64,000 nt of DNA from the human T2T-CHM13v2.0 reference genome, Homo sapiens. Made by a program: the position numbers and the translations under genes. Numbering within the stretch: the first letter of the stretch is position 1; each line of letters begins with the position of its first letter. The stretch is from assembly GCF_009914755.1 (NCBI RefSeq), contig NC_060935.1. The stretch is one strand, 5' to 3'. Below the pieces are notes generated by a model, which was given only the letters and a program-made list of their open reading frames with translations, was not told the DNA's origin and did no database searches. Below, one piece after another: positions 1 through 43,777 of this stretch.

Positions 1-1695
1 TGCTTTTAGACTTGTGCCTTAAGTCCACATTGTCACCACAAAGGCCTGTGACTTCTGAATTTTTTCCAGAACTCACATTTCCAAAAGCTGAGCCTTGGAG
101 AGCTCAATGGTAAGGAGATCTCGGCAGGCAGTTCCTGAGGAGACGCTAGTCGTTCTCCTTTCTGCATTCATACATCCATAAAAGTTGTTAAAACCTCAAG
201 CCTGCTGAGTCCTGAGGGTTCAAGGAGTTGCTGAAAGAAAACTGCCTCTGTTAGCTAACTTGTTTTAACCTCAGCTTCTGAAAGTTGGGGGCCAACCTAA
301 ATTCTTCCTGCTACACTTCTGTTGCTGGGCGCCTATCTTTCTTTGTTTCTTGTCTGAGACAGTAAACAGAGGGTAATGGTTGCACAAGCACCAGCTCTTT
401 TGTGATAGCCTGGGAGCTTCATGCAAGGAGTTCTGAACAGGTTGCAAAAGAGAAGCTGTTGCTGAATGCCAAAAAAAACCCCAAAACCGAAAACAAACAA
501 AAAAACCCTCTCTCCAGTTCTAGCTTGTTAGCTTTTTCCAAACCTTTGGGAGCTTGCCTTACCAATCAATGAGTCAGAAACCTTGACAGTTTCTGCAGTA
601 AGAAACTGTCGGGGAGGAATGAAGTTTGCACACTGGGTGATACCAGAGGAAGATTTGACCTGTGCTTAGTACACTTCAGCTTTATTTGAATGTTTTTCAC
701 AGTCATTAGAAATCAGGCAAGTTTTTAAAGTCAAACATTAAAATGACTACATTTTTAAAGTGAAGGTTGCAACACTTAGCATGAGAAGAAAGCTAACAGA
801 CAAACCCAAAAACAGTTGAAATGTAGTGGAAAGAGAACTGAAGCAAAAACATTCTCTTCCTAGAGATTGTTTAAGACCTTCAGATGCACTAAACATTGAA
901 AGATGATAATGTGCCCATCTATGTAAGTCAAAACAAAATGAGACCTTTTTGAAATATTACAAAACTCCATGTATGTTGAAACTAAAATAGTGTGTTTCTA
1001 GATTTTATGATTGCAGAATTTGGCATTAATCCATGGAAGCTGCCCTATCCCCCTCTCTGCTTTATTCATGTCCTAACAGTTTGTCTGCCTGTTGGAGAAT
1101 CTAGCAGAGCTATCTGTGTGCCCTCTGCCTTTTAACTCTGAGCAAGACATTTTCATTGTCTTGTCCTTGGCTTCCTCAGCGGTACAATGAAAGATAGTTT
1201 ATACGTTAAATTTCAGGATGCTTTCAGGAACATGATTTTATAAATAGCTCTGTGAGGTTGGGGAGAAGGAGCAAAGTCAGAGAGTTTAAGTGTTTTGCCC
1301 AGGGTCCCAAGACAAACAGAAGTACAACTCAGGTCTTCATGTTCTGAGTGTAGTTCCTTCAGCTGTATTGCGTGGGTTTTGAGTTTTTAATAAACTCTAA
1401 GGGCATTGTGTTGGGTGATGGACAAAAATATGCAAATAAATGGAGTACTTTATTGCTTCATTATTATTTATTTGGGTAAATATTCATTTGAATGTTGCTA
1501 TTATGCCTACAAAATGTGTAATTGTTTTATTTTTTAGAATATTAGCACTTTGGAAGGAAAGGCTTTAAATATCTGATAAACACAACAAATATTGAATAAT
1601 GTGAAGTATTTTAATGAGTTCACATTGACTTTAGTTTGCAAATTATGGTAATGGAGTAAAGGAAGGGATTTCTTGTTAGGGAAATTGACAGGAGT

Positions 1696-1700
<5 letters not shown>

Positions 1701-1758
<58 letters not shown>
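1701..1758. repeat. Compound (TG)n(AG)n microsatellite
   Basis: Directly visible. Confidence 0.98.
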
Positions 1759-3074
1759 AACATTTACAGCTTTTCAGATGTTATTTAATGCTATACACAG
1801 TTGTTTAAATGTTAAGAAAATAAAACCTGTAATGAAATACTTTATCATGTCAGATAAAATATATAATTAGGAGGGCTGTTTGAGATAAATTTCAGCCTAT
1901 CTTTAAGATGTGGTAGATCAAGAGTAATTTAACATGATTTAGCGCTGCTATTGCACAGTTAAGTATTGTCTGTGGTTGAATAGATAATGAAATGCAGTGC
2001 ATATAAGGTATGTTTTATTTCTTCTTTTTTTTTTTTCAAAATGAGAGTTTCATGAAAACCTCTCTGAGGTATTAAAAGTCCTTTTCTGATCTGAATAAAT
2101 ATTTTCTCTTCAGGCAGGTCATATATTATAGTTTGTTTAACAAAATAAAGGCTTGTGGCAGAAGCACATGAAATGCAGATAATGGTAAAATGACACTAAA
2201 CATAGCCCCTCAGGGCAGGTGTGGAGTGTTATTTTAGCAGTAAACCCCTTCTTATTAAAGTGTCTGTCATGGGTGTTTTGGAAGCAGCTGACCTTCCTTC
2301 TTACAAAGTGGCTATAAAACCACATCCTGACTTCTTTTCCTTTATCATGGACTTAGATACTCCAGAACTGAGGTACTAACCTTCTTGTCTTTGGCTTTGT
2401 GAATGTCCTAACACAATGTAGTCTAAAGTAAATGAAAAACTGAATTGGAACTCAGATTTTCTTGTTTTTTAAACGGAATTTTCTGGCCTATGTTCTTGAT
2501 ACCCACTCATTTAGAAAAGTTGTTGACTAAAAATAGTTTTGGCATATAATCATGGGGATTTGTAAGTGGAAAAATAATACATTAAACAGTAATACATATA
2601 TAAAGTACTAAAGCTGGGATAAATTAACTTGACTAAAGGGCCATGATGTTTTCTTAAGATAGCCTTTTTCAGTTTAGGGTTCCTTATCAAATCCTTCTGC
2701 TTCTTATCTATCTACTCCCCTCAATTATATCTCACACATGTTAGCTACAAGAGCCATCATTTTCCTGAAGCAGCTCTTCCATCATGGTGCTAACCTGATC
2801 ATTAAAGGAAAAAGCAGGTAGGGAGGGGGCTCCTGAAGTGCCCAAGTTTAAAGTTCATGGTCTTCATTTTGACATTTAGGGCTTGTGCTTTGTTCACCCT
2901 GTGTATGAGCTTCCTCCAGTTGAACTATACTGGGTCACTGATTCTTTCTCAGACAGTTCTTGCACTTTCCCACATCTGTGTTTTTACTTCCTCTGCTCCA
3001 TCTGGATTTCGGGCCAAAAAGATTCCAGTTAATCATTAGAATTGTTTCTGTCTTCTGTGATCCACCTCAGATGA

Positions 3075-3530
3075 GAGCATAATAACATGGTGGGTAAGAG
3101 CCTAGGCATTGGAATTAAATACACTTAAGTTGGAATTATAGCTCTACCACATATGAATAAGAACATAAGCCAAATACCTTAATTAACCAAGCTTGTCTAA
3201 CCTGCCTTATTTTGTTGTTGTTGTTCTGTTTTGTTTTGTTTTAGGCTTTTAGCAGCTTGAAGACATGGTTTTTGGGTTCTGTCTCTAGTGATAAGCAGAA
3301 GAGAGGGTTGAGGAAGGGGCTTTACTGGCCCAACCAGAAACAGAAACTAAAAACCCATGACTGTATTCTCTCCCTTGGGTACCCTTAAAACTCAGTTTTA
3401 CCATCCATAAAATGGAGATAATGATACCCACCGAATTTATTGTGAGAATAAAATAAAATAATGTATTTAAGGCATACATGATCACAATATCTGGCAATTG
3501 GTAGGCACTTAGTAAGATACTATTTATTGC
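3075..3530 (+). mobile_element. MIR SINE, interrupted by MER30B
   Basis: MIR core (ctcagttttaccatccataaaatggagataatgatacc..tgtgagaataaaat..) resumes after the 3188-3386 insert. Confidence 0.7.
3188..3386 (-). mobile_element. MER30B-like hAT-Charlie DNA transposon (MITE)
   Basis: Termini caagcttgtctaacc / cccttgggtaccctt resemble MER30-family ends (CAGGGGTGTCCAA..GGTTGGACAAGCTTG) in reverse. Confidence 0.75.
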
Positions 3531-4831
3531 CTTCTATTCCATAGAGTTCCTCCATTTTCTTTCTCCTACACAGCAATTAGTCCCTGCTCTGTGTCCTCAT
3601 AGCCCTTTGTTTCCTTGCTTTATAGTATTTGCTATGTTATGTTAGTATTTTCCCTCCCTTAAGTTCCTTGAAGTTGATCTCTGCTAGGTATTTCATAAAT
3701 GTTGGCTGAATTAAATTGAGTTGCAGAACCAGTGTACTTAACAACAGTGGGGTTTAAGTGATCTCAGCGTTAAAAAACTAGAAATTTTAGATAATTGATG
3801 GCTCCAAGGTCAAGCCAAGAACCCAAGCACCATATTTTTATGTATAAAAACTGGACAGCAAGCTGAAAATCAGCAGAATAGAAGGCCAGATACTTATAAG
3901 TCCTACCCAAATGACTGGGGAGGAATGAAGAGGTCAAATAGCTGCCTTAGGTCATTCAACTGCTTTGCAATTCCACATGTGGAATCATGTTAATGGTATT
4001 TGGGCTTCAGCACCATTGGTCTGATCCTTTGTAAAGTTACAAATATTTATTATAATAGTGATTCCTGTGTGTTTCAGATTCTCCTTAAGTCATATTAGTA
4101 ATTTAATTCTCTGACTTACCCTGGAATCATTGAAATTCTAGTATAAGAGAGTCAAGGATTCAAGTAAAGCAGCAGCTGGCCCCGGGACCTGGGACCAAGA
4201 GGGAGGTTTAGTAAGTCATCAGTGTCTGTCCAGCTGTCTCTCTGCACCTTGCCTTCTTCTCTTCTCTATACAAGTGTGTTTTCTCTCAGAATCCCCTTAT
4301 TTGGTGGAGAATTTGAAGCTGCAAGTCCTGTAACATAATCAGAATTCTCCAGATTCTAGCCTTGATCAAAAACTAGAAAAACCATGGAAGTTTTTTTATA
4401 AGCTCTAATTATGTTCAAATTATCATTCTCTCTACTTCTGCCTCATAAATATACATCTTACCTTAAAAGTATTTTTTTTTTTCTCCATGAAAACAGTAGC
4501 AAGGCATTTTTGAAGGAAGGGTGGGATGTTTGGTACTCTCCTCAGTTATATCTCATACACAGGAGCTACAAAGCATTTATACTCTTCCTAAAACATCTCT
4601 TTAATCAAGGCCCTTCTTTGATTCCCCCTCCCCCCCAACAAAAGCTAAAAGGGAGAAAAACTTTTGCATTTTCTCCTCAGTTTAAATAGATTACAGTTAG
4701 TGAGAAAATTGAGGGTGAAAATTGAATTGGTAAGCAATGTAGTTAACCAGTATTCAAATATTTACATTTTGCCATGTCTTCTCATTTAAAGTGAGATCAT
4801 GAAGAAGGGAGACTAATGACTTAAAGGGGGA

Positions 4832-6674: not shown

Positions 6675-7257
6675 TTTTTTTTTCAGACTTTCAGCCCCTT
6701 TAATTAGGTCAGAATGGCAGGCAAGGGGTGGGGAAGGTGGTGCTTCTTGAGCTCCACTCAGCAACTGGTCAGTTCTCATCCTCTGGCAACTGGATCGTGC
6801 TGGGGTTGAAGCAGTTGGATTCCATGATGGGAAGGTCTTTGGCCTCTCGGTATTTCACAAGCATCTCAGCTCTGCAGTGGGCCCACTCTCGCATCCTGTA
6901 ATCAGGCAGATAGGCCACAAAGGTGCTGCCAAGGACCGGGACAATGGAGACGCCAAAGAAGAAGACAACTCACATGTTCCAGATGTCCAAAATGGGGTCC
7001 TTGTCATAGCAATGGGAGTCTGGGTTCTTCTCATAGAAGTTTTTGTCCTCAGGATCTGGGTCCTCCTGCCAATGTACGGTCAGTTCCGGGGGCTGTTTTC
7101 CCACCACAGCAGACAGGGCGACCACAGTCCTGGAGAAGCTGGATTCCCAGCGGAGGTGGGTGGCCAAGAGCCTTTGCATCACCACTGCCGCCAAAAGACT
7201 GGGAGCGCTCAAACTTAACAGCCCAACTGCCATGACAGATAGTCCTACAGGGTCTCC
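6675..7257 (-). pseudogene. NDUFB11P1: Processed pseudogene of NDUFB11 (complex I subunit), CDS homology 7233-6769
   Basis: Minus-strand translation [82 protein letters not shown] matches NDUFB11. Intronless, with ATTAAA (6699-6704) and poly(A) remnant (T9, 6675-6683). Degenerate TSD gactcctatggatttt / gactctatgtggatttt. Symbol from recall. Confidence 0.95.
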
Positions 7258-10568: not shown

Positions 10569-10898
<330 letters not shown>

Positions 10899-17920: not shown

Positions 17921-20900
17921 CTGTAACCATTGCATGCTCTGCCTTTGTGTTGGCATTGGCTCTGGCACTGCATACACCAGAGCAGAGACTGATCTTCCAT
18001 TTGCAGTTTGAACACGGGTCACCTTCCTCAAGGACTCCTGTCAAGGGGACTCTATATTGACTTTGTTCTTTGCTTTACAGCCTAACATAGCAAATTTCTT
18101 GAGTACCCTCCCGATTTGGCTAACAAAATCCCCTCAAAATAGAAAAGATAGGAAGAGAGGGAATGAAAATGAAATATATTTTTAAAATACCTTTGGTAGT
18201 GTTCAGAAGTCTCACCAATTTAAGCAGACCAGATTAATGTTGGCAGAAAACAGCTTTATCAGGTTACCAAAGCAAGCATAGGTACCCTACAGAGCCAAGG
18301 CTGTCCCAGAGAGGTAGTCTCTGTGATTGCTGTTCCCTGCCCCCAAGGTCTCTGGTATTTATTCATCCATGGAAAGAAAAATCTGCATGCCCTTCTGAGT
18401 CCCACAGTAAGATCCATCCTAACAGAGCAGAAGGGCAGGATGGGGAGGCACACCAGGAATGCCTCTGAAAAATAAATGTCTCAAAGATTGATGGCTTGAT
18501 GATCTCTTTGGAGATTATATCAAAAATTATTGATTATGTTAGTAAGTCGTAGAAAATAGGCTCTGAGGTTGGGAACTAAGTGCTTTCTTTAAAATAATCT
18601 AGAAGCAGTAGAATAAATCAATGTGCAGAGCATCTAAAATACTGTATCATATTGGCTTCACAAATAGCTTGGCTTCAATGTGGAAAGGGCAATATTATTT
18701 TTAAAAAAAACTTCAACAGTTGTCTTGGCATGCTAAAAAGAAAAGAAGACAAAATTCAATTCTATTATTTGCTTTGCAAAATTTTACAACATTCCTAGCT
18801 TCTAGCATTCATTTATTTCCTAATCAGTGGGAAAACTGCAAGGCTTTTTAAAATAATTTGTGCCAGATAGGGCTTTTTTTTTTTCCTTTGCCACAATAAA
18901 GATACAAAAGCCTTAAAAGATATTTTGTTTTCAACAACTGAATTTGACAAACTTAGTCCTGCTCAGTTTTTTGGTGGTAGGTCTGAATTTCAGTATGTGA
19001 TAATACTACTCCATTTATGCTTGTTTTGAAATATTTTCTATTTGCATTTAAGACCACCGATTCCGGTTTTTAAGAAAACAATTCCAGCAATGTATCTTGC
19101 TGAAAGAAAAACTCACTATGCAAAAGCACCAATTTTTGAATAGTTAAATTGAATGATACATTTTCATATTATGATAGCATTCTTTGCCTTGAAAGATTCA
19201 CAGAAAGATTTGTAAAAAGTAACTATCCCCTTAGGGCACTTTAATGTTTATTTATAAACAGTTAACTACTTAGAGGAAGAAATAACACCAGGGAGAGTAA
19301 TATGGTGTCAGAAAAGGAAGATGACTCCAAAATAATGATAAACCACAGCTCTAAAATTTTAATGTAACTTAATGAAAACTAATTCAATTGAAGCGTGTTT
19401 CAGTTTGGTATTAGCTCTGAACCTGGGAAACTTGAGTCCTGGCATTAGGGGAATCTCTTCATTTTATGGACCCTGGTTTCTTCATCTGTAAACTCAGGAG
19501 ATTGGAACAGATGATCTTTAAGGCTCCTTTGAACCTGTATAATTTCTTGATTCAGTTTCCTGAAGTAAGATGTGCTTTTTGTTGGGGAATAGGAAACGGA
19601 GCATATTAAAGGCATCTGGGCCTCTGGTTACATTAGTACTTAGGGTTCTGTTCAACAAACCAGTGTTGTTTGCTTCCTGTGTGGTGGGTGCTGTACTGGA
19701 TGCTGGGAATAGAGTGATGTACTTCCCATCAGGTTTCCTTAAATAGAAGTTCAAAGTGTGAATGAGGGGGCAGACTCAGAAAAGTTCAGTTGAACTGTAT
19801 TTTTCATGGGGGAAGTTTTCCTCTCTGATGACCATGGAGTCTAGACTCCTTGGGCTAAGGATCGGCAAAATTACTGTTACAGGAAGTCTTCTCAGCACAG
19901 GATAGTGAGTGGGAAATAAGGCAGAAACTTTATTTGTATTTCTCTGGAGCATTCTGGGAGTGATCCCAGTATTTCACCTTGAGAGAGTGTAACCTAACCT
20001 TCACATTCCCTTACGAGAGACTCGCTTACTTTACCGTGTTCACATGTCCACAGTGAGCCTAAAAATGTCTCCACTGCTTTGGAGCCTTTTGAGATGATGA
20101 AATAGAGACTCCTGAGGCATACAAAATACTATTAAAGCTTCTGCTAGTGTACTTCTGTGATCACTACAGAGAGGTTCTTTTGCTCCCATATTTCAGTTGA
20201 CTGTGCTCTACAAAGTAGACACCCCAATCACACTGTGGGCTTCGCCACTCTGCTAGGTAGGACATTTGAACCTACTGCATCCAGAAAACCCCAAATGTAT
20301 CATTTTCTTAATAAAGTTTCCTTTGAAATGACCAGCAGCCCAGTGATGTCTTTCTAGGAACTTACTGAGCAGGGTCACCAGCGGCCATCTGACTTGGTCC
20401 CTGCCCTAGTTACCAGAGCTGCTGTCCACAGGCTGCCTGTTCCACTTACTTAGCATATGCAATGTCTCTAAAGAACTGCATGTGAAATTAACTTCCTTTA
20501 TAGACGCTTACTCCCTTTTTCAGCTTTTCATTTTTGCTGTCTATTAATGCCTGTAAAGTCCCTAAATTAAACTTGACTTTTTCTATCTGTAACTCCATGT
20601 TTTCTACGGGATACTTCAGCAAATGATAGCAGCAAGATATCTTACATTCCCAGGCAGAACCAGCATTTGCATGCTCAGGGTTTCACTTCAGGAGAGTCTC
20701 CTGTAAGGTGGAGCTGAAAAAAAAAAAAAAAGAAAAGCCTTGTGGGGTATGGAGAGAGCCTGAGCTCTAATCTAGAGTCTGCTAGACTCTATCAATGACT
20801 ATTAAATTTAGACAGTTTCCACAGTTTCATGACTATGTGGGTTAAAAGGTAAAAACTTTTTCCTATTTTAGCCAGTAAAATTAATCAAGGAGAGGGGAGA

Positions 20901-21299
20901 AAGGAGGTATTCAACAAGAAAAAGTTAAGTCTATTTAGACTTAACTAATAAAGTCGAGATAGGAAAATGAGGTTTTATATTATCATTAACAAAAAGGTTA
21001 TAATAATATGTGCCTTGCTAACCTTGGATATGAAAGGGTTTTATAAACCATACAATTTGTAATATTTTAATATGTTAAACTCCTGTAGGGATTTTTTTTT
21101 TTTTCAGTTTGCAGCCAATAACTAGAACTACATTAAAACCAGAGAGGAGATAACCAAAAAGATATGCTGGGGGCAGGGATGGGTTGTACTTTTTAAAATC
21201 AATGACATATGTTGACTATTTCATTAGAATTAAATTATGTCATATATGCTTCTAGGATCCTTAATTATTTCATTCTTGCTTGCAGGTAATTTTGAGAGA

Positions 21300-21560: not shown

Positions 21561-22079
21561 TTTCCATCTCCTCTCATCTTCACGTTCCCTGTAAAGGAAG
21601 AAAAGGAGAATGTCAAGGGCTTGCAGAGTATAAGACTGGATGGAAGAACTCATATTTGGGGGTTCTAAAAATCTGATCCTTTGGGTATGAATAGACTTAA
21701 CTTTTTCTTGTTGAATACCTCCTTTCTCCCTTCTCCTTGATTGATTTTACTGGCTAAAATAGGAAAAAGTTTGTATCTTTTAACCCACATAGTCATGAAA
21801 CTGTAGAAACTGTCCAAATTTAATAGTCATTGATGAAAGTAATTGGAAGTATCTCTTGTAATTTCTAAAGTTTTTCTTGCAAGTAATCACTCTTACCTCC
21901 CTTGTTCTGAATAGTTCTGGATATCACTCCAGTCATATAACTCCTTAGGGATTATTGTCTCTGCTTTGTAACTTGACACTTTGTTCATTCTCATGGCATT
22001 GCATTATTCATAAACCTTGATCAGTTTAAAAGTAAGCACAATAAAAGATGGTAATACCTTGAAGCATTTTAAAAAGATT

Positions 22080-22590: not shown

Positions 22591-22832
22591 TTATTTAAAA
22601 CAAAGTGTCACTTGAAAACAATTCTTACAAGATTGGGCTAAATTCTAGTAATCTTAAGTTCCTTATTACCTAGTAGTGGCAAGGTTTCTAATTTTTTCTT
22701 ATATTGCTGTTTTAGTAAAAAGATTTTGTGATAAAGTTTTAAAAAGCATGGCTTCCTAATAGTTATTTCCCACTCTCCCCCTTCTTCTAGGATGGTTAAT
22801 TTATCTTTTCTCTCTCTCTTTCTTCCCTCCAG

Positions 22833-22849
22833 GATGGAAGTATGATGTG
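22833..22849 (+). other. FAT3: 17-nt 5' UTR part of the FAT3 coding exon, containing uORFs
   Basis: tcttccctccAG|GATGGAAGTATGATGTG-ATG; uATGs at 22834, 22842 and 22845. Confidence 0.85.
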
Positions 22850-25800
22850 ATGGATATAATTATGGGACACTGTGTGGGCACACGGCCTCCTGCTTGTTGC
22901 CTCATCCTCCTGCTTTTCAAGCTTTTGGCCACTGTCTCCCAGGGGCTGCCAGGGACTGGACCCCTGGGCTTCCACTTCACACATTCCATTTATAATGCTA
23001 CCGTGTATGAGAACTCAGCAGCAAGGACCTACGTCAACAGCCAGAGTAGAATGGGCATCACCTTAATAGATCTATCCTGGGATATCAAATACAGAATAGT
23101 GTCCGGAGACGAGGAAGGCTTTTTCAAAGCAGAGGAAGTCATCATTGCAGATTTCTGTTTTCTCAGAATAAGAACTAAAGGTGGCAATTCTGCCATATTA
23201 AATAGGGAAATCCAGGATAATTATTTATTGATAGTAAAAGGTTCTGTCAGAGGAGAGGATTTGGAAGCATGGACCAAAGTGAATATACAGGTTTTAGATA
23301 TGAATGATCTGAGACCTTTGTTTTCACCCACAACATACTCTGTTACCATAGCAGAAAGCACACCTCTAAGGACTAGTGTTGCCCAGGTGACTGCAACAGA
23401 CGCAGATATTGGTTCCAATGGAGAATTCTACTACTACTTTAAAAATAAAGTTGATCTCTTTTCAGTTCACCCCACGAGTGGTGTCATCTCCTTAAGTGGT
23501 CGATTAAATTATGATGAAAAGAATAGGTATGATCTGGAAATTTTGGCTGTGGACCGGGGAATGAAACTGTATGGGAACAATGGAGTGAGCAGTACTGCAA
23601 AGCTTTATGTTCACATTGAGCGCATAAATGAACATGCCCCAACAATCCATGTAGTCACTCATGTTCCTTTCTCGTTGGAAAAAGAGCCAACATATGCAGT
23701 GGTGACAGTTGATGACTTAGATGATGGAGCGAATGGAGAGATCGAATCTGTTTCCATTGTGGCTGGGGATCCTTTAGATCAGTTCTTCCTGGCTAAGGAA
23801 GGAAAGTGGTTGAATGAGTACAAGATTAAGGAGAGGAAGCAGATTGACTGGGAGAGCTTTCCCTATGGCTACAATCTCACTCTTCAAGCAAAAGACAAGG
23901 GATCTCCTCAAAAATGTTCAGCATTAAAGGCAGTCTACATTGGCAACCCCACAAGAGACACTGTCCCCATTAGATTTGAAAAAGAAGTGTACGATGTGAG
24001 CATAAGTGAATTTTCCCCTCCTGGTGTCGTGGTTGCTATAGTAAAATTAAGTCCTGAACCGATAGATGTGGAATACAAATTATCTCCTGGTGAGGATGCA
24101 GTGTACTTTAAAATTAATCCTCGGTCGGGTCTGATTGTTACAGCACGGCCACTGAATACTGTTAAGAAGGAGGTTTATAAACTGGAGGTGACAAACAAGG
24201 AAGGAGATTTAAAAGCACAGGTCACCATCAGCATAGAAGATGCAAATGACCACACCCCAGAATTTCAGCAACCACTGTATGATGCTTATGTGAATGAAAG
24301 TGTCCCAGTGGGAACCAGCGTTCTAACAGTTTCAGCTTCTGATAAGGATAAAGGAGAAAATGGGTACATCACCTATAGTATCGCTAGCCTGAATTTGTTA
24401 CCATTTGTCATTAATCAGTTTACAGGTGTTATTAGCACAACTGAAGAACTGGATTTTGAATCCTCCCCAGAAATTTACAGATTCATTGTTAGAGCCTCTG
24501 ACTGGGGTTCACCATACCGCCATGAAAGTGAGGTCAATGTGACTATTCGAATAGGAAATGTCAACGACAACAGCCCTCTCTTTGAAAAAGTGGCTTGCCA
24601 GGGAGTTATTTCATATGACTTTCCAGTTGGTGGTCACATCACAGCAGTCTCAGCGATCGATATCGATGAACTTGAACTTGTAAAGTACAAAATCATTTCT
24701 GGAAATGAACTTGGCTTCTTTTATTTAAACCCAGATTCTGGTGTTTTACAGCTTAAAAAATCACTGACAAATTCTGGCATTAAAAATGGCAATTTTGCCC
24801 TCAGAATTACAGCAACTGATGGAGAGAATCTTGCAGACCCCATGTCTATTAACATTTCAGTCCTACATGGGAAAGTGTCTTCAAAGAGCTTCAGTTGCAG
24901 AGAAACTCGTGTGGCTCAAAAGCTGGCAGAGAAACTACTCATTAAGGCAAAAGCAAATGGGAAACTGAATCTGGAAGATGGATTTCTTGACTTTTATTCA
25001 GTTAATAGACAGGGACCATATTTTGACAAGTCTTTTCCTTCTGATGTGGCTGTAAAGGAGGATCTGCCAGTTGGTGCTAACATTCTGAAGATTAAAGCCT
25101 ATGATGCCGACTCTGGCTTCAATGGAAAAGTGCTATTTACAATATCAGATGGAAATACGGATAGTTGCTTTAATATTGATATGGAGACTGGGCAGCTTAA
25201 AGTCCTTATGCCCATGGATCGAGAACACACAGACCTCTATCTCCTTAATATCACCATCTATGACTTAGGTAATCCACAGAAATCGTCATGGAGACTGCTG
25301 ACCATCAATGTGGAGGATGCTAATGACAATAGCCCAGTTTTTATTCAAGACAGTTACTCAGTTAACATTCTTGAAAGTTCAGGCATTGGTACTGAAATCA
25401 TTCAAGTGGAAGCCAGAGACAAAGACTTAGGTTCTAATGGTGAAGTGACTTACTCAGTCTTGACAGATACACAGCAGTTTGCCATCAATAGCTCAACTGG
25501 AATCGTTTATGTAGCCGACCAGTTGGACCGGGAATCCAAAGCCAATTATTCTTTGAAAATAGAAGCCAGGGACAAGGCAGAGAGTGGTCAGCAGCTGTTT
25601 TCAGTTGTCACTCTTAAAGTTTTTTTAGATGATGTCAATGACTGCTCCCCAGCTTTCATTCCCAGTAGCTATAGTGTGAAGGTTCTTGAAGATCTCCCTG
25701 TTGGCACTGTCATTGCTTGGCTTGAGACCCATGATCCAGATCTTGGACTGGGGGGTCAAGTGCGCTATTCTTTGGTCAATGACTATAATGGGAGATTTGA

Positions 25801-26141
25801 AATAGATAAAGCAAGTGGTGCCATCCGCTTGAGCAAAGAGCTTGATTATGAGAAACAGCAGTTCTATAACCTTACTGTGCGGGCCAAAGACAAAGGGCGG
25901 CCTGTCTCTCTGTCATCTGTTTCCTTTGTTGAGGTGGAAGTGGTGGATGTCAATGAAAACCTCCACACTCCCTATTTCCCAGACTTTGCTGTTGTTGGAT
26001 CTGTAAAGGAAAACTCACGCATTGGAACAAGCGTGCTGCAGGTGACTGCTCGAGATGAAGACTCCGGAAGGGATGGAGAGATCCAGTACTCCATCAGGGA
26101 TGGCAGTGGTCTTGGAAGGTTCAGTATAGACGACGAGAGTG
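22850..26141 (+). CDS. FAT3: FAT atypical cadherin 3, first coding exon (signal peptide + cadherin repeats EC1-EC9 and first half of EC10); CDS continues in exons beyond this window
   Basis: ATG at 22850 (gtgATGg) starts [32 protein letters not shown]. Repeated cadherin motifs ([47 protein letters not shown]; DRE/DYE/DFE; AxDxG). Polypyrimidine/AG acceptor at 22831-22832 and GTAAGT donor at 26142-26147 (phase 1, 3292 coding nt). The ORF-track extension to 26209 is intronic read-through. Confidence 0.97.
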
Positions 26142-27140
26142 GTAAGTGTAATATTTTGTGCCAAGAGTGTTGTTTCACCTCTTTTAAATGGTCAACAGTG
26201 GAAAAGTAAAGGGATGTTAGGACACTAAAATAGAATGACAAATGAGGTTGCATTTGGTGCAGAGACGACGCACATAGATGCTTTTTCTTAGGATGTTCTG
26301 GTTTGTTAGAAGATCTGTTTATAAACTAACAGCTGTGGTTTCCAGTGGGAGTCCTGGTTTGTTTTGTTTTGTTATTTTCTTGCTCAGCACTATTGCTACC
26401 AGGTCATCTTTTGATAAGCCTAAGTAATTGTCACTTCTGTTGATTGTACTCCTGACCCTCTCTAAATGAAGGACTCTGATAAAGTAAATTACATTTGAAT
26501 TGGCTTTAAGTTAGAAGTGTGAAATGGATTTTCAAATGGATCTTATATAGGAATCTTTCCCTTTACAGTAAGGCTTTGCAGAAGTGATATTGCATTAGTT
26601 GCTTGGTCTTTTATCTTTCATGGGTTCATCTGGTCCTTGAATGATGGGCATTTGCACTCTGTAGCTCCATTAATATAAGGAGGTGTGCTTCTACAAATGT
26701 TTTCTTAATGGAATAAATGAGTCTTGCTATGAATTTTATTTATAAAAATTGATTTTAAGAATTTATTTGTAAGGAGATATTTACAAAACATTAAAAAATA
26801 TGGGGCAACATTGTTCCAGTATTTTCATCGCTTCTGACTTACTTTTTAAATTATTCATTCATAGATACAGATACAGGTTTTTTAAAATACTTGTTATTGT
26901 CGCTATTTGTCTTTAAAATGTTCATGTGCCTGGACACATGCATCTCTTTGTGTATGTGTGTGTTTCTGTTCCTTTGTTAGCACTGTGCATTTTTCTAGAT
27001 TTTAGATTGTAGACATCTCAAGTGAGGGCCTGTGTCTTCCCTGTCTTGTTTAAATGGTAATATTAGCACCTTACCATTTTCAGAGCACATTTACATACAT
27101 TAGATACTTGTCCACAATATTTGTAGAGTGCTTTTTTCCC

Positions 27141-36311: not shown

Positions 36312-38017
36312 TTTAATTGCATATCATTCCTTTATTATACTGATCTGGAAAAAGGATTTAGTACAGTTATGCTCAAATGAACACTGGGCCTGTGTGGCAG
36401 GGCCAAGCAACTAGAATATGATTCAGAAGTCAGTCAGTGAAAGACACACTTGGACAGGACCAAGAGGCATTTCACTGCCTTGAAACAAGGTGGGGGAGAG
36501 ATTCTAAAATACACAGCAGGAGGCACTCCTACCCCTCATAGGTCAAGGAGCTTATCCCATATTGGTGTGAAGAATGGCTTATTTTCTGATGACCACATGT
36601 GGGGCTATTTCAACTGCCATGAGAAACCCCAGAAAGGTTAGTGTTTTGGATTATTTATATACACTATACTTCTATAAAAGTAAATGTAACACATACACTA
36701 AAGTCAGGATTGATCTCAACCTGCTAGAGCCAGCTCTCTGGGGTGAGGGAGGAAGGAGTTGTTTGTCACATCACCATGCAGGTTGCATTCATCTTCCACT
36801 GGAGTGACTAGAGCTCCCAGGCAATGGCCTGACTCTGAAAAGCACAGGACTGGCTCTAGGAGCAGATCGGCTCTCTTGCATCTCCTTATTGGTCATGGCT
36901 TAGCATGGTTCCTCCCCACAAGTCCTTAGTAAACAAAGCACTGGCAAAAACCCAAGTCACTACCTTTCGACTCTCTTGGACAAGGAGAGCTTTTTCTCAG
37001 CTTGGACTGAGAACCTGTGCCCTAGAAGCATTATTCTGACTAGGTTGTAAAGAGAGAGGCTACAGGAGACAAAATGGCTAAAATGAAAATGGGAGCCACT
37101 GATCCCCATCTGCAGTTACAACTTAAGATGCTTACAGATGTGGTCAGTGTGACATGTCCAGGAGGGAGGTGCACAGGGGGATGTGACAGACAGGGAGGGT
37201 GCTCCTGGGGACAGTAGCTTGCCCGCCAGCCCTCACTTCTTGGCCTTACCCTCGGCAGCCGCAGCTTCCATGGCTTTACCGATCATCCCCCAAGAACTGC
37301 ATGCGCCTGATGGGCTTCAAGTCCTTGTCCAATTCATAGACAATGGGAATAACCAGTTGACAGGTTCAGCTCCATGATAGCCTCTTCAGAGACCTTCCAC
37401 ATGCTTGACAATGGTTGGAAGGCTGTTTCCATGGGCTGCAATCAGTACTCATTTCCCCTCCTTGATCTGGGGAGCTATTTCTTCATTCCAAAAGAGTAGA
37501 GCTCTGGTGGTAGTGTCCTTCAGATGCTCACAGGAAGGTAGCTGATCTTCAGTGAGGTCTGCATACCTGCCATCCTTACTGATGTTGCTGTAGAAAGGAT
37601 GGTTGGGCTTCATTAGAGGTGGTGGGACATCACAGGTGCACCTCCAGATCTTTACCTGGGCCTCGCCATGCTTTGCAGCAGTTTCTGCTTTATTGACTCT
37701 GGTCAGACACCCATAGTGCCCTTATTGAGGTGTCAAGTCCTCATTACTGGCAGCCACATCTGATCAATAACATCTAGCACTGTCCGGACGGTCCAGATCA
37801 CTCTCTTCTGCACTGAGGTGAAGCAGGTGTCAAATTCAGAGCCAGCGTCTCCCAGTGCCTGCCTGTAGCACTTTGCCTTCTCGTGGCCTGCTGGGCTCAG
37901 GTTGGCATTGTACCACCCACTGAAGCAGTTCTCCAGGTTCCACATGCTCTCTCTGTGGTGGATCAGCACCAGCTTGTAGGCAGCCATGGTGGCTGTCTGG
38001 GCATGTGGTGCCAACTG
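36312..38017 (-). pseudogene. PGAM1P9: Processed pseudogene of phosphoglycerate mutase 1 (CDS homology 37987-37233 plus full 3' UTR)
   Basis: [36 protein letters not shown] resembles the PGAM1 N-terminus; catalytic RHG changed to HHR, W->stop at 37733-37735, 1-nt frameshift just after. C-terminus ..GKAKK* ends at 37233. AATAAA at 36331-36336 (minus). TSD gtatagatgatt (36300-36311) / gtacagatgatt (38018-38029). Symbol from recall. Confidence 0.95.
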
Positions 38018-38050
38018 GTACAGATGATTAAATGAAGAACTGGTAGTAGA

Positions 38051-43388: not shown

Positions 43389-43777
<389 letters not shown>

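What the first reader, a model, noticed from the sequence alone, without database searches (positions are those of the whole stretch)
22833..26141. Circularised FAT3 exon is a stop-free endless ORF: candidate rolling-circle-translated cadherin polymer
Seen: the exon is 3309 nt = 1103 codons exactly. The CDS ends in phase 1 (..GAG AGT G|gtaagt) and the 17-nt leader read in that frame is (G)GA TGG AAG TAT GAT GTG ATG, with no stop. Back-splicing 26141->22833 would join EC10 via GWKYDV to the native Met, signal peptide and EC1, so a ribosome in the FAT3 frame never terminates. Both TGA stops in the leader fall in the other two frames. Known (from recall, not verified here): large AUG-containing second exons flanked by long introns circularise efficiently, a brain-enriched circFAT3 from this exon has been reported, and stop-free circles can be translated as concatemers. 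Inference: products could be 1103-aa units or concatemers of the N-terminal cadherin repeats with a recurring signal sequence (secreted decoy or membrane-stitched polymer). I do not know of this being described for FAT3. A multiple-of-3 length with 6 open codons can also occur by chance, at roughly 1 in 4.
Basis: partly seen in the sequence, partly recalled or inferred. Interest (0 to 1): 0.85.

Follow-up and report, generated by a model that had tools for sequence, protein, structure and literature searches.

The report
Known circFAT3 exon; endless frame ordinary
This is the first coding exon of FAT3, already known to form an abundant brain circular RNA, and its stop-free circular reading frame is real but is a property that about one in five comparable exons share, with no evidence yet that it is translated.

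Summary
The exon (window 22833-26141) is 3309 nt, a multiple of 3. The FAT3 frame has no stop, and back-splicing would close it through a Gly codon and the 17-nt leader. The circle is not hypothetical. It is circFAT3 (hsa_circ_0000348), and its published junction probe matches these exon ends exactly.

The endless frame is ordinary:
- On chr11, 71 of 367 start-codon-bearing internal exons (19%) would also be endless.
- Published figures are 8% of AUG circRNAs and 14% of all circRNAs.
- The FAT1 paralogue's equally well-known exon-2 circle is 3283 nt and not endless.

The leader's frame is shared by mouse, sheep and eight fishes but not by carp. That evidence is biased and fits plain sequence conservation.

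Nothing I could reach shows translation, and the main study of AUG circRNAs found none. A polymer would join a half cadherin repeat to a repeated signal sequence each lap.

Verdict: a known circle and a new, unremarkable member of the "rolling-circle ORF" class. The cadherin-polymer idea is untested and unlikely.

The parts
22833..26141 (+). FAT3 exon 2 (first coding exon). It is identical to the sequence of circFAT3 / hsa_circ_0000348. Length 3309 nt.
   Evidence: sequence, length, annotation. [quoted passage not shown]
22833..22849 (+). 17-nt leader (5'UTR part of exon 2). It is open in the FAT3 frame and reads WKYDV after the junction codon.
   Evidence: The same frame is read through by the Gnomon model XM_054367641.1.
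22834..22850 (+). Three upstream ATGs (22834, 22842, 22845) forming two overlapping mini-uORFs of 3 and 2/1 codons. They end at TGA 22843-22845 and at TGA 22848-22850, which overlaps the main ATG.
   Evidence: These are the only ATGs in the whole 374-nt 5'UTR (exon 1 plus leader).
22850..22852 (+). Annotated FAT3 start codon (M1).
   Evidence: coding starts at chr11:92278850; the nearest in-frame stop is 24 codons upstream in the spliced 5'UTR, with no in-frame upstream ATG.
22862..22864 (+). Second in-frame ATG (M5). It aligns with the FAT1 start (MGRH...).
   Evidence: the MxxxMG pattern is kept in vertebrate FAT3, and FAT1 starts at the M5 equivalent.
22895..22927 (+). Hydrophobic core of the signal sequence (residues 16-26).
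   Evidence: the best 11-residue Kyte-Doolittle window averages 2.84, and the best 19-residue window (residues 15-33) averages 1.97. The cleavage site was not predicted with a dedicated tool.
22800..22832 (+). Polypyrimidine tract and AG of the exon-2 acceptor, the site used in the back-splice.
26142..26147 (+). Donor site gtaagt, phase 1. This is the site used in the back-splice.
   Evidence: The phase-1 donor sits at the homologous position in FAT1 and FAT2.
25997..26137 (+). Last cadherin repeat of the exon, cut in the middle by the exon end.
   Evidence: it matches positions 3-49 of the 93-position PF00028 profile.
10626..10862 (.). Upstream arm of an inverted Alu pair that flanks the exon, 11,971 nt before it.
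   Evidence: pair I1: 237 nt, 89% complementary. (Alu 5' motif on + at 10569).
43402..43638 (.). Downstream arm of the same inverted Alu pair, 17,261 nt after the exon.
   Evidence: I1. (Alu 5' motif on - at 43696).

Best explanation
The feature is the first coding exon of FAT3. It encodes the signal sequence plus about ten cadherin repeats, the last one only half.

Shown in the literature: the exon sits between introns of about 131 and 169 kb and is efficiently back-spliced into circFAT3 (hsa_circ_0000348). This is a known, abundant, cytoplasmic neural circular RNA of the 'AUG circRNA' type.

Shown here: the circular frame has no stop. This follows from two facts. The donor is in phase 1, which FAT1, FAT2 and FAT3 share. 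The leader is 17 nt, so 17 + 1 is divisible by 3, and it happens to have no stop in that frame.

Inferred:
- The endless frame is a by-product, not a selected device.
- The leader is conserved for ordinary reasons: acceptor site, start-codon context and its cluster of mini-uORFs.
- The circle acts, if at all, as RNA.
- Any translation is rare, and its products are quality-control substrates rather than a working cadherin polymer.
For: Identity of the circle:
- Published junction probe 3633-369 of NM_001367949.2 (PMC10122638, passages) against exon 1 = 357 nt and exon 2 = 3309 nt.
- Human circle 3,309 nt and mouse circle 3,306 nt (PMC12216475, passages).
- Cytoplasmic, often perinuclear, and four times linear FAT3 in day-30 organoids.

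Ordinariness:
- 71 of 367 chr11 ATG-bearing internal exons are endless, and 17 of 21 with 11-20 nt leaders among the length-divisible ones.
- Infinite ORFs are predicted for 8% of AUG circRNAs in human and in mouse, and post-junction ORF lengths fit chance (PMC6487579, passages).
- 14% of human circRNAs have host-frame rolling-circle ORFs (PMC9242994, passages).

Not needed for circle formation or abundance:
- FAT1 exon 2 is 3283 nt (mod 3 = 1), has an in-frame TAA in its 18-nt leader, and stops 27 codons past the junction.
- circFAT1 is nonetheless an abundant cytoplasmic exon-2 circle of 3283 bp (PMC6280518, passages).
- Carp FAT3a predicted proteins read the leader in a different frame, implying an 18-nt leader and a circle length not divisible by 3.

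Translation:
- The AUG-circRNA study found no phased junction footprints, no peptides and no protein from ectopic circles.

Product plausibility:
- Each lap would end in half a cadherin repeat.
- Each lap would re-present a hydrophobic signal core.
- Two of three tested rolling-circle products were proteasome-sensitive.
Against: - The leader frame is kept widely. Mouse has a 17-nt leader, deduced from the 3,306-nt circle and a single 1-residue gap over the exon.
- Predicted proteins that extend upstream of M1 show the human-type frame in 9 of 10 species (sheep hybrid, gar, Arapaima, Aldrovandia, trout, toothfish, Pampus, Spinachia, turbot). This is biased, because only open leaders can be seen, but it is more stability than a neutral 5'UTR need show.
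- FAT2's homologous exon, with an acceptor I inferred, is 3279 nt and also endless.
- Two papers list circFAT3 among circles with predicted coding potential: a TransCirc ranking (PMC11429730) and an ORF + IRES + m6A screen (PMC8692596).
- Junction-targeted knockdown gives neural phenotypes without changing linear FAT3, and the mechanism is unknown.
- In the preprint of the AUG-circRNA study (10.1101/328104), circFAT3 had no annotated flanking intron and was left out of the flanking-intron analysis. The conservation analysis of PMC6487579 needed both splice sites annotated, so I infer that circFAT3 was left out of it too.
- Rolling-circle ORFs were over-represented among mass-spectrometry-supported circles.
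Confidence: 0.78

Rival explanations
1. circFAT3 is translated from the native AUG round and round, giving 1103-residue units or concatemers of the N-terminal cadherin repeats that act as a secreted decoy or a membrane-stitched polymer.
For: - The frame really is endless.
- The circle is abundant and cytoplasmic or perinuclear.
- Stop-free circles give concatemers in reporters and for circPSAP, circPFAS and circABHD12.
- rtEGFR is a reported endogenous case (review PMC8442428).
- The frame is kept in most vertebrates that could be seen.
- Knockdown phenotypes lack a mechanism.
Against: - There is no junction footprint, peptide or polysome datum for circFAT3 in anything I could read.
- The class-level evidence is negative.
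- The base rate is 19%.
- FAT1's circle lacks the property, and so does carp FAT3a.
- Each lap ends in half a cadherin repeat.
- By the standard start/stop-transfer rules (inference), an internal copy of the signal core (19-residue mean hydropathy 1.97) would either stay uncleaved in the lumen or stop transfer. Stopping transfer would put the next ten repeats in the cytosol.
- A ribosome that never meets a stop cannot release its chain normally (established knowledge).
Confidence: 0.04
2. circFAT3 is translated occasionally, for one lap or less, ended by frameshift, stalling or drop-off. The products are N-terminal FAT3 fragments that are degraded or merely add to the pool already made from short linear isoforms. 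There is no specific function.
For: - The other two frames hold 65 and 102 stops, so any slip ends translation at once.
- circPSAP gave mainly a single-lap product, and rolling-circle products were proteasome-sensitive.
- A linear RefSeq isoform (NM_001378141.1, 1238 residues) already encodes exon 2 plus a short tail.
- Similar short isoforms are predicted in turtles, lizards, frogs and fishes.
Against: The same lack of any direct datum applies. The AUG-circRNA study saw no protein even from over-expressed AUG circles.
Confidence: 0.12
3. The leader's frame is kept because it is coding in linear mRNAs. N-terminally extended FAT3 isoforms start in alternative upstream exons and read through the leader into M1.
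For: - Gnomon model XM_054367641.1 starts in an alternative first exon (chr11:92254589-92255000). It has 25 coding nt ending in phase 1 and adds 14 residues before M1 without a stop.
- Several predicted proteins in fishes and a sheep hybrid carry extensions that run through the leader.
Against: - The model is Gnomon only.
- At least the trout and carp extensions look like translated polypyrimidine tract and acceptor, that is, intron read-through by gene predictors.
- In the curated mRNA the ATG frame is closed 24 codons upstream.
- The leader residues vary (W to L in turbot; K/R/S/W at the next position).
Confidence: 0.06

Closest known systems
circFAT3 (hsa_circ_0000348; mouse mmu_circ_0001746)
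   Same: It is the same molecule: a single-exon circle of FAT3 exon 2, 3309 nt, brain-enriched and cytoplasmic.
   Different: In the passages I read it is treated as a non-coding RNA, as a miRNA sponge or of unknown mechanism. None states that its frame is endless. Two papers only list it among circles with predicted coding potential.
AUG circRNAs (Stagsted et al. 2019, PMC6487579)
   Same: It contains the host gene's start codon, has very long flanking introns, and is abundant and conserved. It is named among the 'alpha' circles in the preprint.
   Different: The preprint says circFAT3 had no annotated flanking intron and was left out of its flanking-intron analysis. The conservation analysis needed both splice sites annotated, so I infer it was left out there too. 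It belongs to the 8% minority with an infinite ORF.
Rolling-circle ORF (rcORF / iORF) circRNAs: circPSAP, circPFAS, circABHD12 (PMC9242994); circ-EGFR giving rtEGFR (review PMC8442428)
   Same: Length divisible by 3, host-frame ORF without a stop, and an AUG present.
   Different: Those circles have junction peptides and tagged-reporter ladders, and rtEGFR is said to end by -1 frameshifting. circFAT3 has none of this. Its lap of 1103 residues is roughly 5-10 times longer than the single-lap products reported there (10.5-22.4 kD). It also starts with a signal sequence.
circ-E-Cad giving C-E-Cad (review PMC8442428)
   Same: A circle from a cadherin gene, said to yield a secreted cadherin variant.
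   Different: C-E-Cad is a finite product with a unique 14-residue tail, described as IRES-driven. It is not an endless frame beginning at the native signal sequence.
circFAT1 (FAT1 exon 2, 3283 nt)
   Same: The homologous giant start-codon exon of a paralogue. It has a phase-1 donor, a short leader, and forms an abundant cytoplasmic circle.
   Different: Its length mod 3 is 1, its 18-nt leader has an in-frame TAA, and its ORF ends 27 codons past the junction.

Membership tests
AUG circRNA | A back-splice junction joining the ends of this exon has been observed. | tested here: met
   I could examine no reads. The published probe 3633-369 of NM_001367949.2 maps onto exon 2 = mRNA 358-3666. The circle length is 3,309 nt. 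RNase R resistance and Sanger sequencing are reported for the mouse circle.
AUG circRNA | The circle contains the host gene's annotated start codon. | tested here: met
   ATG at window 22850, 17 nt into the exon.
Rolling-circle ORF (rcORF / iORF) circRNA | Circle length divisible by 3. | tested here: met
   3309 = 3 x 1103.
Rolling-circle ORF (rcORF / iORF) circRNA | No stop codon in one frame over a full turn, with a start codon in that frame. | tested here: met
   0 stops at offset 2. The junction codon is Gly. ATG at 22850.
Translated circRNA | Ribosome association: in-frame junction-spanning footprints, or the circle present in polysomes. | not testable with these tools
   No reads or Ribo-seq were available. 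Supplements that might list it are closed (PMC9242994 Supplementary Data 4; the tables of PMC6487579).
Translated circRNA | A junction-spanning peptide detected by mass spectrometry. | not testable with these tools
   No proteomics data. FAT3 does not occur in the main text of PMC9242994 (0 occurrences).
Translated circRNA | A cap-independent initiation element (IRES-like element or m6A near the start). | not tested
   Only second-hand software predictions exist: an IRESfinder and m6A-region screen lists circFAT3 (PMC8692596), and a TransCirc score ranks it.
Selected (conserved) endless ORF | Length mod 3 = 0 and an open leader kept in orthologues and paralogues beyond what descent explains. 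| tested here: inconclusive
   Same frame in mouse and in 9 of 10 species whose predicted proteins extend upstream of M1. Carp differs. FAT1 no, FAT2 yes with an inferred acceptor, FAT4 has its start in the first exon. The evidence is protein-only and biased, and no vertebrate DNA was available.

The most novel reading that the evidence does not exclude
The endless frame of circFAT3 has been kept since the ancestor of bony vertebrates because the circle is translated. Ribosomes start at the native AUG, are taken to the ER by the signal sequence, and make N-terminal FAT3 ectodomain species of one lap or more. These modulate FAT3/FAT4-Dachsous adhesion or signalling. This would explain why junction-targeted knockdown disturbs neural progenitor fate and neuron positioning without changing linear FAT3.
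Probability: 0.05. Interest if true: 0.8.

Novelty: new member of a known kind. Interest (0 to 1): 0.27.

Why it matters
circFAT3 is one of the most abundant neural circular RNAs. It has knockdown phenotypes in organoids, mouse cortex and dopamine neurons, and no known mechanism.

If its endless frame were translated, it would be by far the largest rolling-circle product known. It would also be a case that starts with a signal sequence, which would bear directly on the disputed question of whether AUG circRNAs are ever coding.

As it stands, the property is common arithmetic. Its practical value is that it defines one clean junction peptide and one clean footprint to look for.

Tried and rejected
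- Rfam scan of the whole window at gathering thresholds: 0 matches.
- ORFs of at least 100 aa overlapping 22700-26300, all six frames: only the FAT3 frame itself, so nothing on the opposite strand.
- Alu-driven circularisation: an inverted Alu pair flanks the exon, but it lies 12 and 17 kb away. The AUG-circRNA study argues for Alu-independent biogenesis with long introns. I cannot decide between these and did not pursue it.
- Orthologue DNA: no vertebrate genome collection is available here, so I used predicted proteins only. Candidates were capped at 4494 aa. That is below the roughly 4,550-4,600 aa that I recall for full-length FAT3, so such proteins could not be candidates.
- circFAT2 in the literature: 0 papers, so my FAT2 acceptor stays unverified.
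- Searches for a printed description of an endless ORF or translation of circFAT3:
  - 'circFAT3': 26 papers.
  - 'hsa_circ_0000348': 12.
  - circFAT3 + 'translat': 24.
  - circFAT3 + 'open reading frame': 7.
  - circFAT3 + 'rolling circle': 7.
  - I read passages in the 12 of these papers that I opened (counting the Stagsted preprint and its published version as one) and found only the two coding-potential listings.
  - Papers seen as listings only were not read. Supplements are closed and may list FAT3: Seeler Table S1, the Stagsted tables, and Fan Supplementary Data 4.
- I considered a true upstream start in exon 1 and rejected it. The ATG frame is closed 24 codons upstream and exon 1 has no ATG.
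- I did not test IRES-like hexamers, m6A motifs or frameshift sites. The published hexamer list is in a closed supplement, and motif counts alone would not decide anything.
Full report
WHAT IS THERE. Window 22833-26141 is FAT3 exon 2, preceded by a pyrimidine tract and cag, and followed by gtaagt. It is 3309 nt, which is 3 x 1103. The frame at offset 2 has no stop; the other two frames have 65 and 102 stops. RefSeq places the start codon at window 22850, 17 nt into the exon. The coding part ends in phase 1. A 26141->22833 join would therefore build a Gly codon from the last G plus the first GA, read WKYDV, and run into the native Met.

The exon encodes the signal sequence (hydrophobic core at residues 16-26) and cadherin repeats. 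PF00028 has 8 separately significant stretches at E = 6e-135. The exon ends inside a repeat, at profile position 49 of 93. So the join would not be a clean 'EC10 to Met' joint. It would be half a repeat fused to the leader.

THE CIRCLE IS ALREADY KNOWN.
- Exon 1 of NM_001367949.2 is 357 nt, so exon 2 is mRNA 358-3666.
- Seeler et al. (PMC10122638, passages) detect circFAT3 (circBase hsa_circ_0000348) with a BaseScope probe 'FAT3-E2-circRNA targeting 3633-369 of NM_001367949.2'. That is exactly this back-splice.
- It is cytoplasmic, often perinuclear, and four times as abundant as linear FAT3 in day-30 cerebral organoids.
- Junction-targeted knockdown gives neural phenotypes without changing linear FAT3.
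- The flanking introns are 130,996 and 169,284 nt. This fits the published rule that the most abundant circles have very long flanking introns.
- An inverted Alu pair also flanks the exon at 12 and 17 kb.
- RefSeq also holds a Gnomon model that skips exon 2 (XM_054367643.1).

IS THE ENDLESS FRAME MORE THAN CHANCE? I built a local control from the chr11 annotation.
- Of 1268 RefSeq-select mRNAs, 367 have their ATG in an internal exon with coding sequence continuing.
- Of those 367, 107 have an exon length divisible by 3 (143 and 117 fall in the other two classes).
- After fetching all 107 exons, 71 are stop-free for a full turn from the ATG. That is 19% of 367.
- By leader length, the open fraction is 25 of 26 (up to 10 nt), 17 of 21 (11-20 nt), 14 of 18 (21-40), 8 of 16 (41-80) and 7 of 26 (over 80).
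FAT3 is simply the longest of the 71.
- Published figures agree in kind. Infinite ORFs are predicted for 8% of AUG circRNAs in human and mouse, with post-junction ORF lengths as expected by chance (PMC6487579). And 14% of human circRNAs have host-frame rolling-circle ORFs (PMC9242994).

PARALOGUES.
- A six-frame search of the reference found the homologous giant exons of FAT1 and FAT2. Both end in phase 1 at the homologous position.
- FAT1's exon, bounded by ...tttcag and gtaaat, is 3283 nt (mod 3 = 1). Its 18-nt leader has an in-frame TAA, and a circular read stops 27 codons past the junction.
- My FAT1 boundaries match the published circFAT1: exon 2, 3283 bp, cytoplasmic (PMC6280518).
- So a paralogous giant start-codon exon circularises abundantly without an endless frame.
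- FAT2's exon, with an acceptor that I inferred from the sequence only, is 3279 nt with a 20-nt open leader, and would be endless. No paper mentions circFAT2.
- FAT4 matches lie within about 1.7 kb of its gene start. I infer that its start codon is in the first exon, with no upstream acceptor.

ORTHOLOGUES. No vertebrate DNA is available here, so I used predicted proteins (184 proteins in all).
- Mouse: over exon 2, mouse and human differ by one 1-residue gap, with 1014 of 1097 residues identical. Together with the 3,306-nt mouse circle, this gives a 17-nt mouse leader.
- 55 proteins show the FAT3 N-terminal pattern MxxxM[G/A/S]. Of these, 13 proteins from 10 species have residues upstream of M1.
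- Nine species read the leader in the human frame:
  - Sheep hybrid P0137 has PGWKYDV before M1, the same as the straight translation of the human sequence through the acceptor.
  - Gar P0104 has GWKNDG.
  - Arapaima P0010 has GWRNDG.
  - Aldrovandia P0006 has EWKNDG.
  - Toothfish P0020 has GWSDDG.
  - Pampus P0076 has EWSDDG.
  - Spinachia P0086-88 has GWWDDG.
  - Turbot P0075 has GLSHGG.
  - Trout P0015 has GWKSDDG, one codon longer.
- Carp (P0113, P0120, and the partial P0031) reads CLQDGFGDG before M1. I take this to be the translated acceptor (...CAG) followed by the same exon start read one base over. That implies an 18-nt leader and a circle not divisible by 3 (inference from protein only).
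- Caveats:
  - Only leaders that are open can be extended by gene predictors, so closed ones are invisible.
  - Several extensions are plainly translated intron.
  - The residues vary.
- My conclusion: the 17-nt leader is unusually stable in length and sequence from gar to human. This fits ordinary constraint on an acceptor, a start context and uORFs. It does not show selection on the circular frame.

WHY THE LEADER MIGHT BE CONSTRAINED ANYWAY. In the curated mRNA the 374-nt 5'UTR has only three ATGs. All three are in the 17-nt leader, and they make uORFs of 3, 2 and 1 codons, the last ending in a TGA that overlaps the main ATG. The ATG frame is closed 24 codons upstream, so M1 is the first possible start. 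A Gnomon model (XM_054367641.1) uses another first exon, about 1 kb before the window, and reads through the leader, adding 14 residues. This is why the annotation marks the exon 'wholly coding'.

WOULD IT BE TRANSLATED, AND INTO WHAT?
- Shown: nothing. I found no footprint, polysome or peptide datum for circFAT3.
- The class-level study of AUG circRNAs reports no phased junction footprints in about 46 billion RiboSeq reads, no peptides, and no protein from over-expressed circles.
- The preprint of that study says circFAT3 had no annotated flanking intron and was excluded from the flanking-intron analysis. The published conservation analysis required both splice sites annotated, so I infer circFAT3 was excluded there too.
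- On the other side, Fan et al. find rolling-circle ORFs enriched among circles with mass-spectrometry support and show ladders for three of them. Two of the three products are proteasome-sensitive.
- rtEGFR and the secreted cadherin variant C-E-Cad are reported cases (review PMC8442428).
- Two papers list circFAT3 among circles with predicted coding potential: a TransCirc score and an ORF + IRES + m6A screen in placenta.
- Inferred, from the standard rules of ER targeting and topogenesis:
  - The first lap would be translocated like FAT3 itself.
  - The second copy of the signal core (19-residue mean hydropathy 1.97) would arrive inside a translocating chain, where signal peptidase is unlikely to see it in the right orientation.
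  - That copy would either pass into the lumen uncleaved or stop transfer, leaving the next ten repeats in the cytosol.
  - With a broken repeat at every joint and no stop codon to release the chain, quality control is the likeliest fate.
  - Any frameshift ends translation at once, because the other frames hold 65 and 102 stops.
- A secreted N-terminal FAT3 fragment does not need the circle. The linear isoform NM_001378141.1 already encodes exon 2 plus a short tail, 1238 residues in all.

COMPARISON AND NOVELTY. The molecule is known. The classes 'AUG circRNA' and 'rolling-circle ORF circRNA' are known. Membership in both is met on sequence grounds. Membership in 'translated circRNA' could not be tested. 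I found no printed statement that circFAT3's frame is endless (passages read in 12 papers; supplements closed). I therefore file it as a new, unremarkable member of a known kind.

VERDICT. Observation confirmed. Interpretation partly supported: the circle is real and the frame is endless, but the polymer is unsupported. Interest is 0.27. It is kept above the floor by three things: the circle's abundance, its unexplained knockdown phenotypes, and the stability of the leader frame across vertebrates. Together these make one cheap and decisive test worthwhile: junction footprints plus one junction peptide.

Noticed in passing
window 22834-22850: The 17-nt leader holds three ATGs (22834, 22842, 22845) that make uORFs of 3, 2 and 1 codons. 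The last TGA overlaps the main ATG. These are the only ATGs in the whole 374-nt 5'UTR, and exon 1 (357 nt) has none. This is a possible translational control element of linear FAT3.
   Followed up: partly
window 22833-22864; proteins P0006, P0010, P0015, P0020, P0075, P0076, P0086-88, P0104, P0137, P0113, P0120, P0031: The leader and the MxxxMG start region are kept from gar to human in predicted proteins that extend upstream. Carp reads the same exon start one base over, implying an 18-nt leader. In one carp copy (P0031) M1 is replaced by T, so M5 would be the start there.
   Followed up: partly
window 20791-20940 and 21685-21834: An inverted duplication with 145-150-nt arms, 95-96% complementary, 744 nt apart, lies 1-2 kb upstream of the exon-2 acceptor. 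It overlaps no listed masked-repeat stretch (only stretches of 100 bases or more are listed) and was found nowhere else in the genome by the own-genome search. It would form a long intronic RNA hairpin. Its function is unknown.
   Followed up: partly
window 22788-22795 versus 22830-22837: The acceptor motif 'ag' followed by GATGG occurs twice, 42 nt apart and in frame. The FAT3 frame stays open from 22763 through the real acceptor. An upstream alternative acceptor would add 14 codons and keep the length divisible by 3. I did not check whether it is used.
   Followed up: no
L023 (chr11:6698284-6700200, DCHS1 exon 2): DCHS1 is another giant cadherin and, from recall, a FAT4 ligand. Its start-codon exon 2 is 1917 nt, divisible by 3, with a 120-nt leader that is open in frame. 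It would also be an endless circle, and it is the second longest of the 71 on chr11.
   Followed up: no
L003 (chr5:152104661-152107939, FAT2, minus strand): The homologous FAT2 exon, with an acceptor inferred from sequence only, is 3279 nt with a 20-nt open leader. It would be endless too. No paper mentions circFAT2.
   Followed up: partly
chr11:92254589-92255000 (about 1 kb before the window start) and the FAT3 transcript set: Gnomon XM_054367641.1 starts in an alternative first exon and reads through the leader. XM_054367643.1 skips exon 2. BestRefSeq NM_001378141.1 is a 4-exon mRNA encoding a 1238-residue N-terminal FAT3 fragment.
   Followed up: partly
P0069 (Smutsia gigantea, FAT1, partial) versus L002: A pangolin FAT1 predicted protein reads PERQA before the start Met, where human FAT1's leader has an in-frame TAA. 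The FAT1 leader stop is therefore not fixed in mammals.
   Followed up: no
P0030 (Characodon lateralis): A 1176-residue FAT3-like cadherin is named 'bahd acyltransferase' by its source. This looks like a mis-annotation.
   Followed up: no
window 6683-7256 and 37036-38025, minus strand: Two processed pseudogenes (NDUFB11P1, PGAM1P9) lie in the introns flanking exon 2, according to the annotation supplied with the finding. I did not examine them.
   Followed up: no
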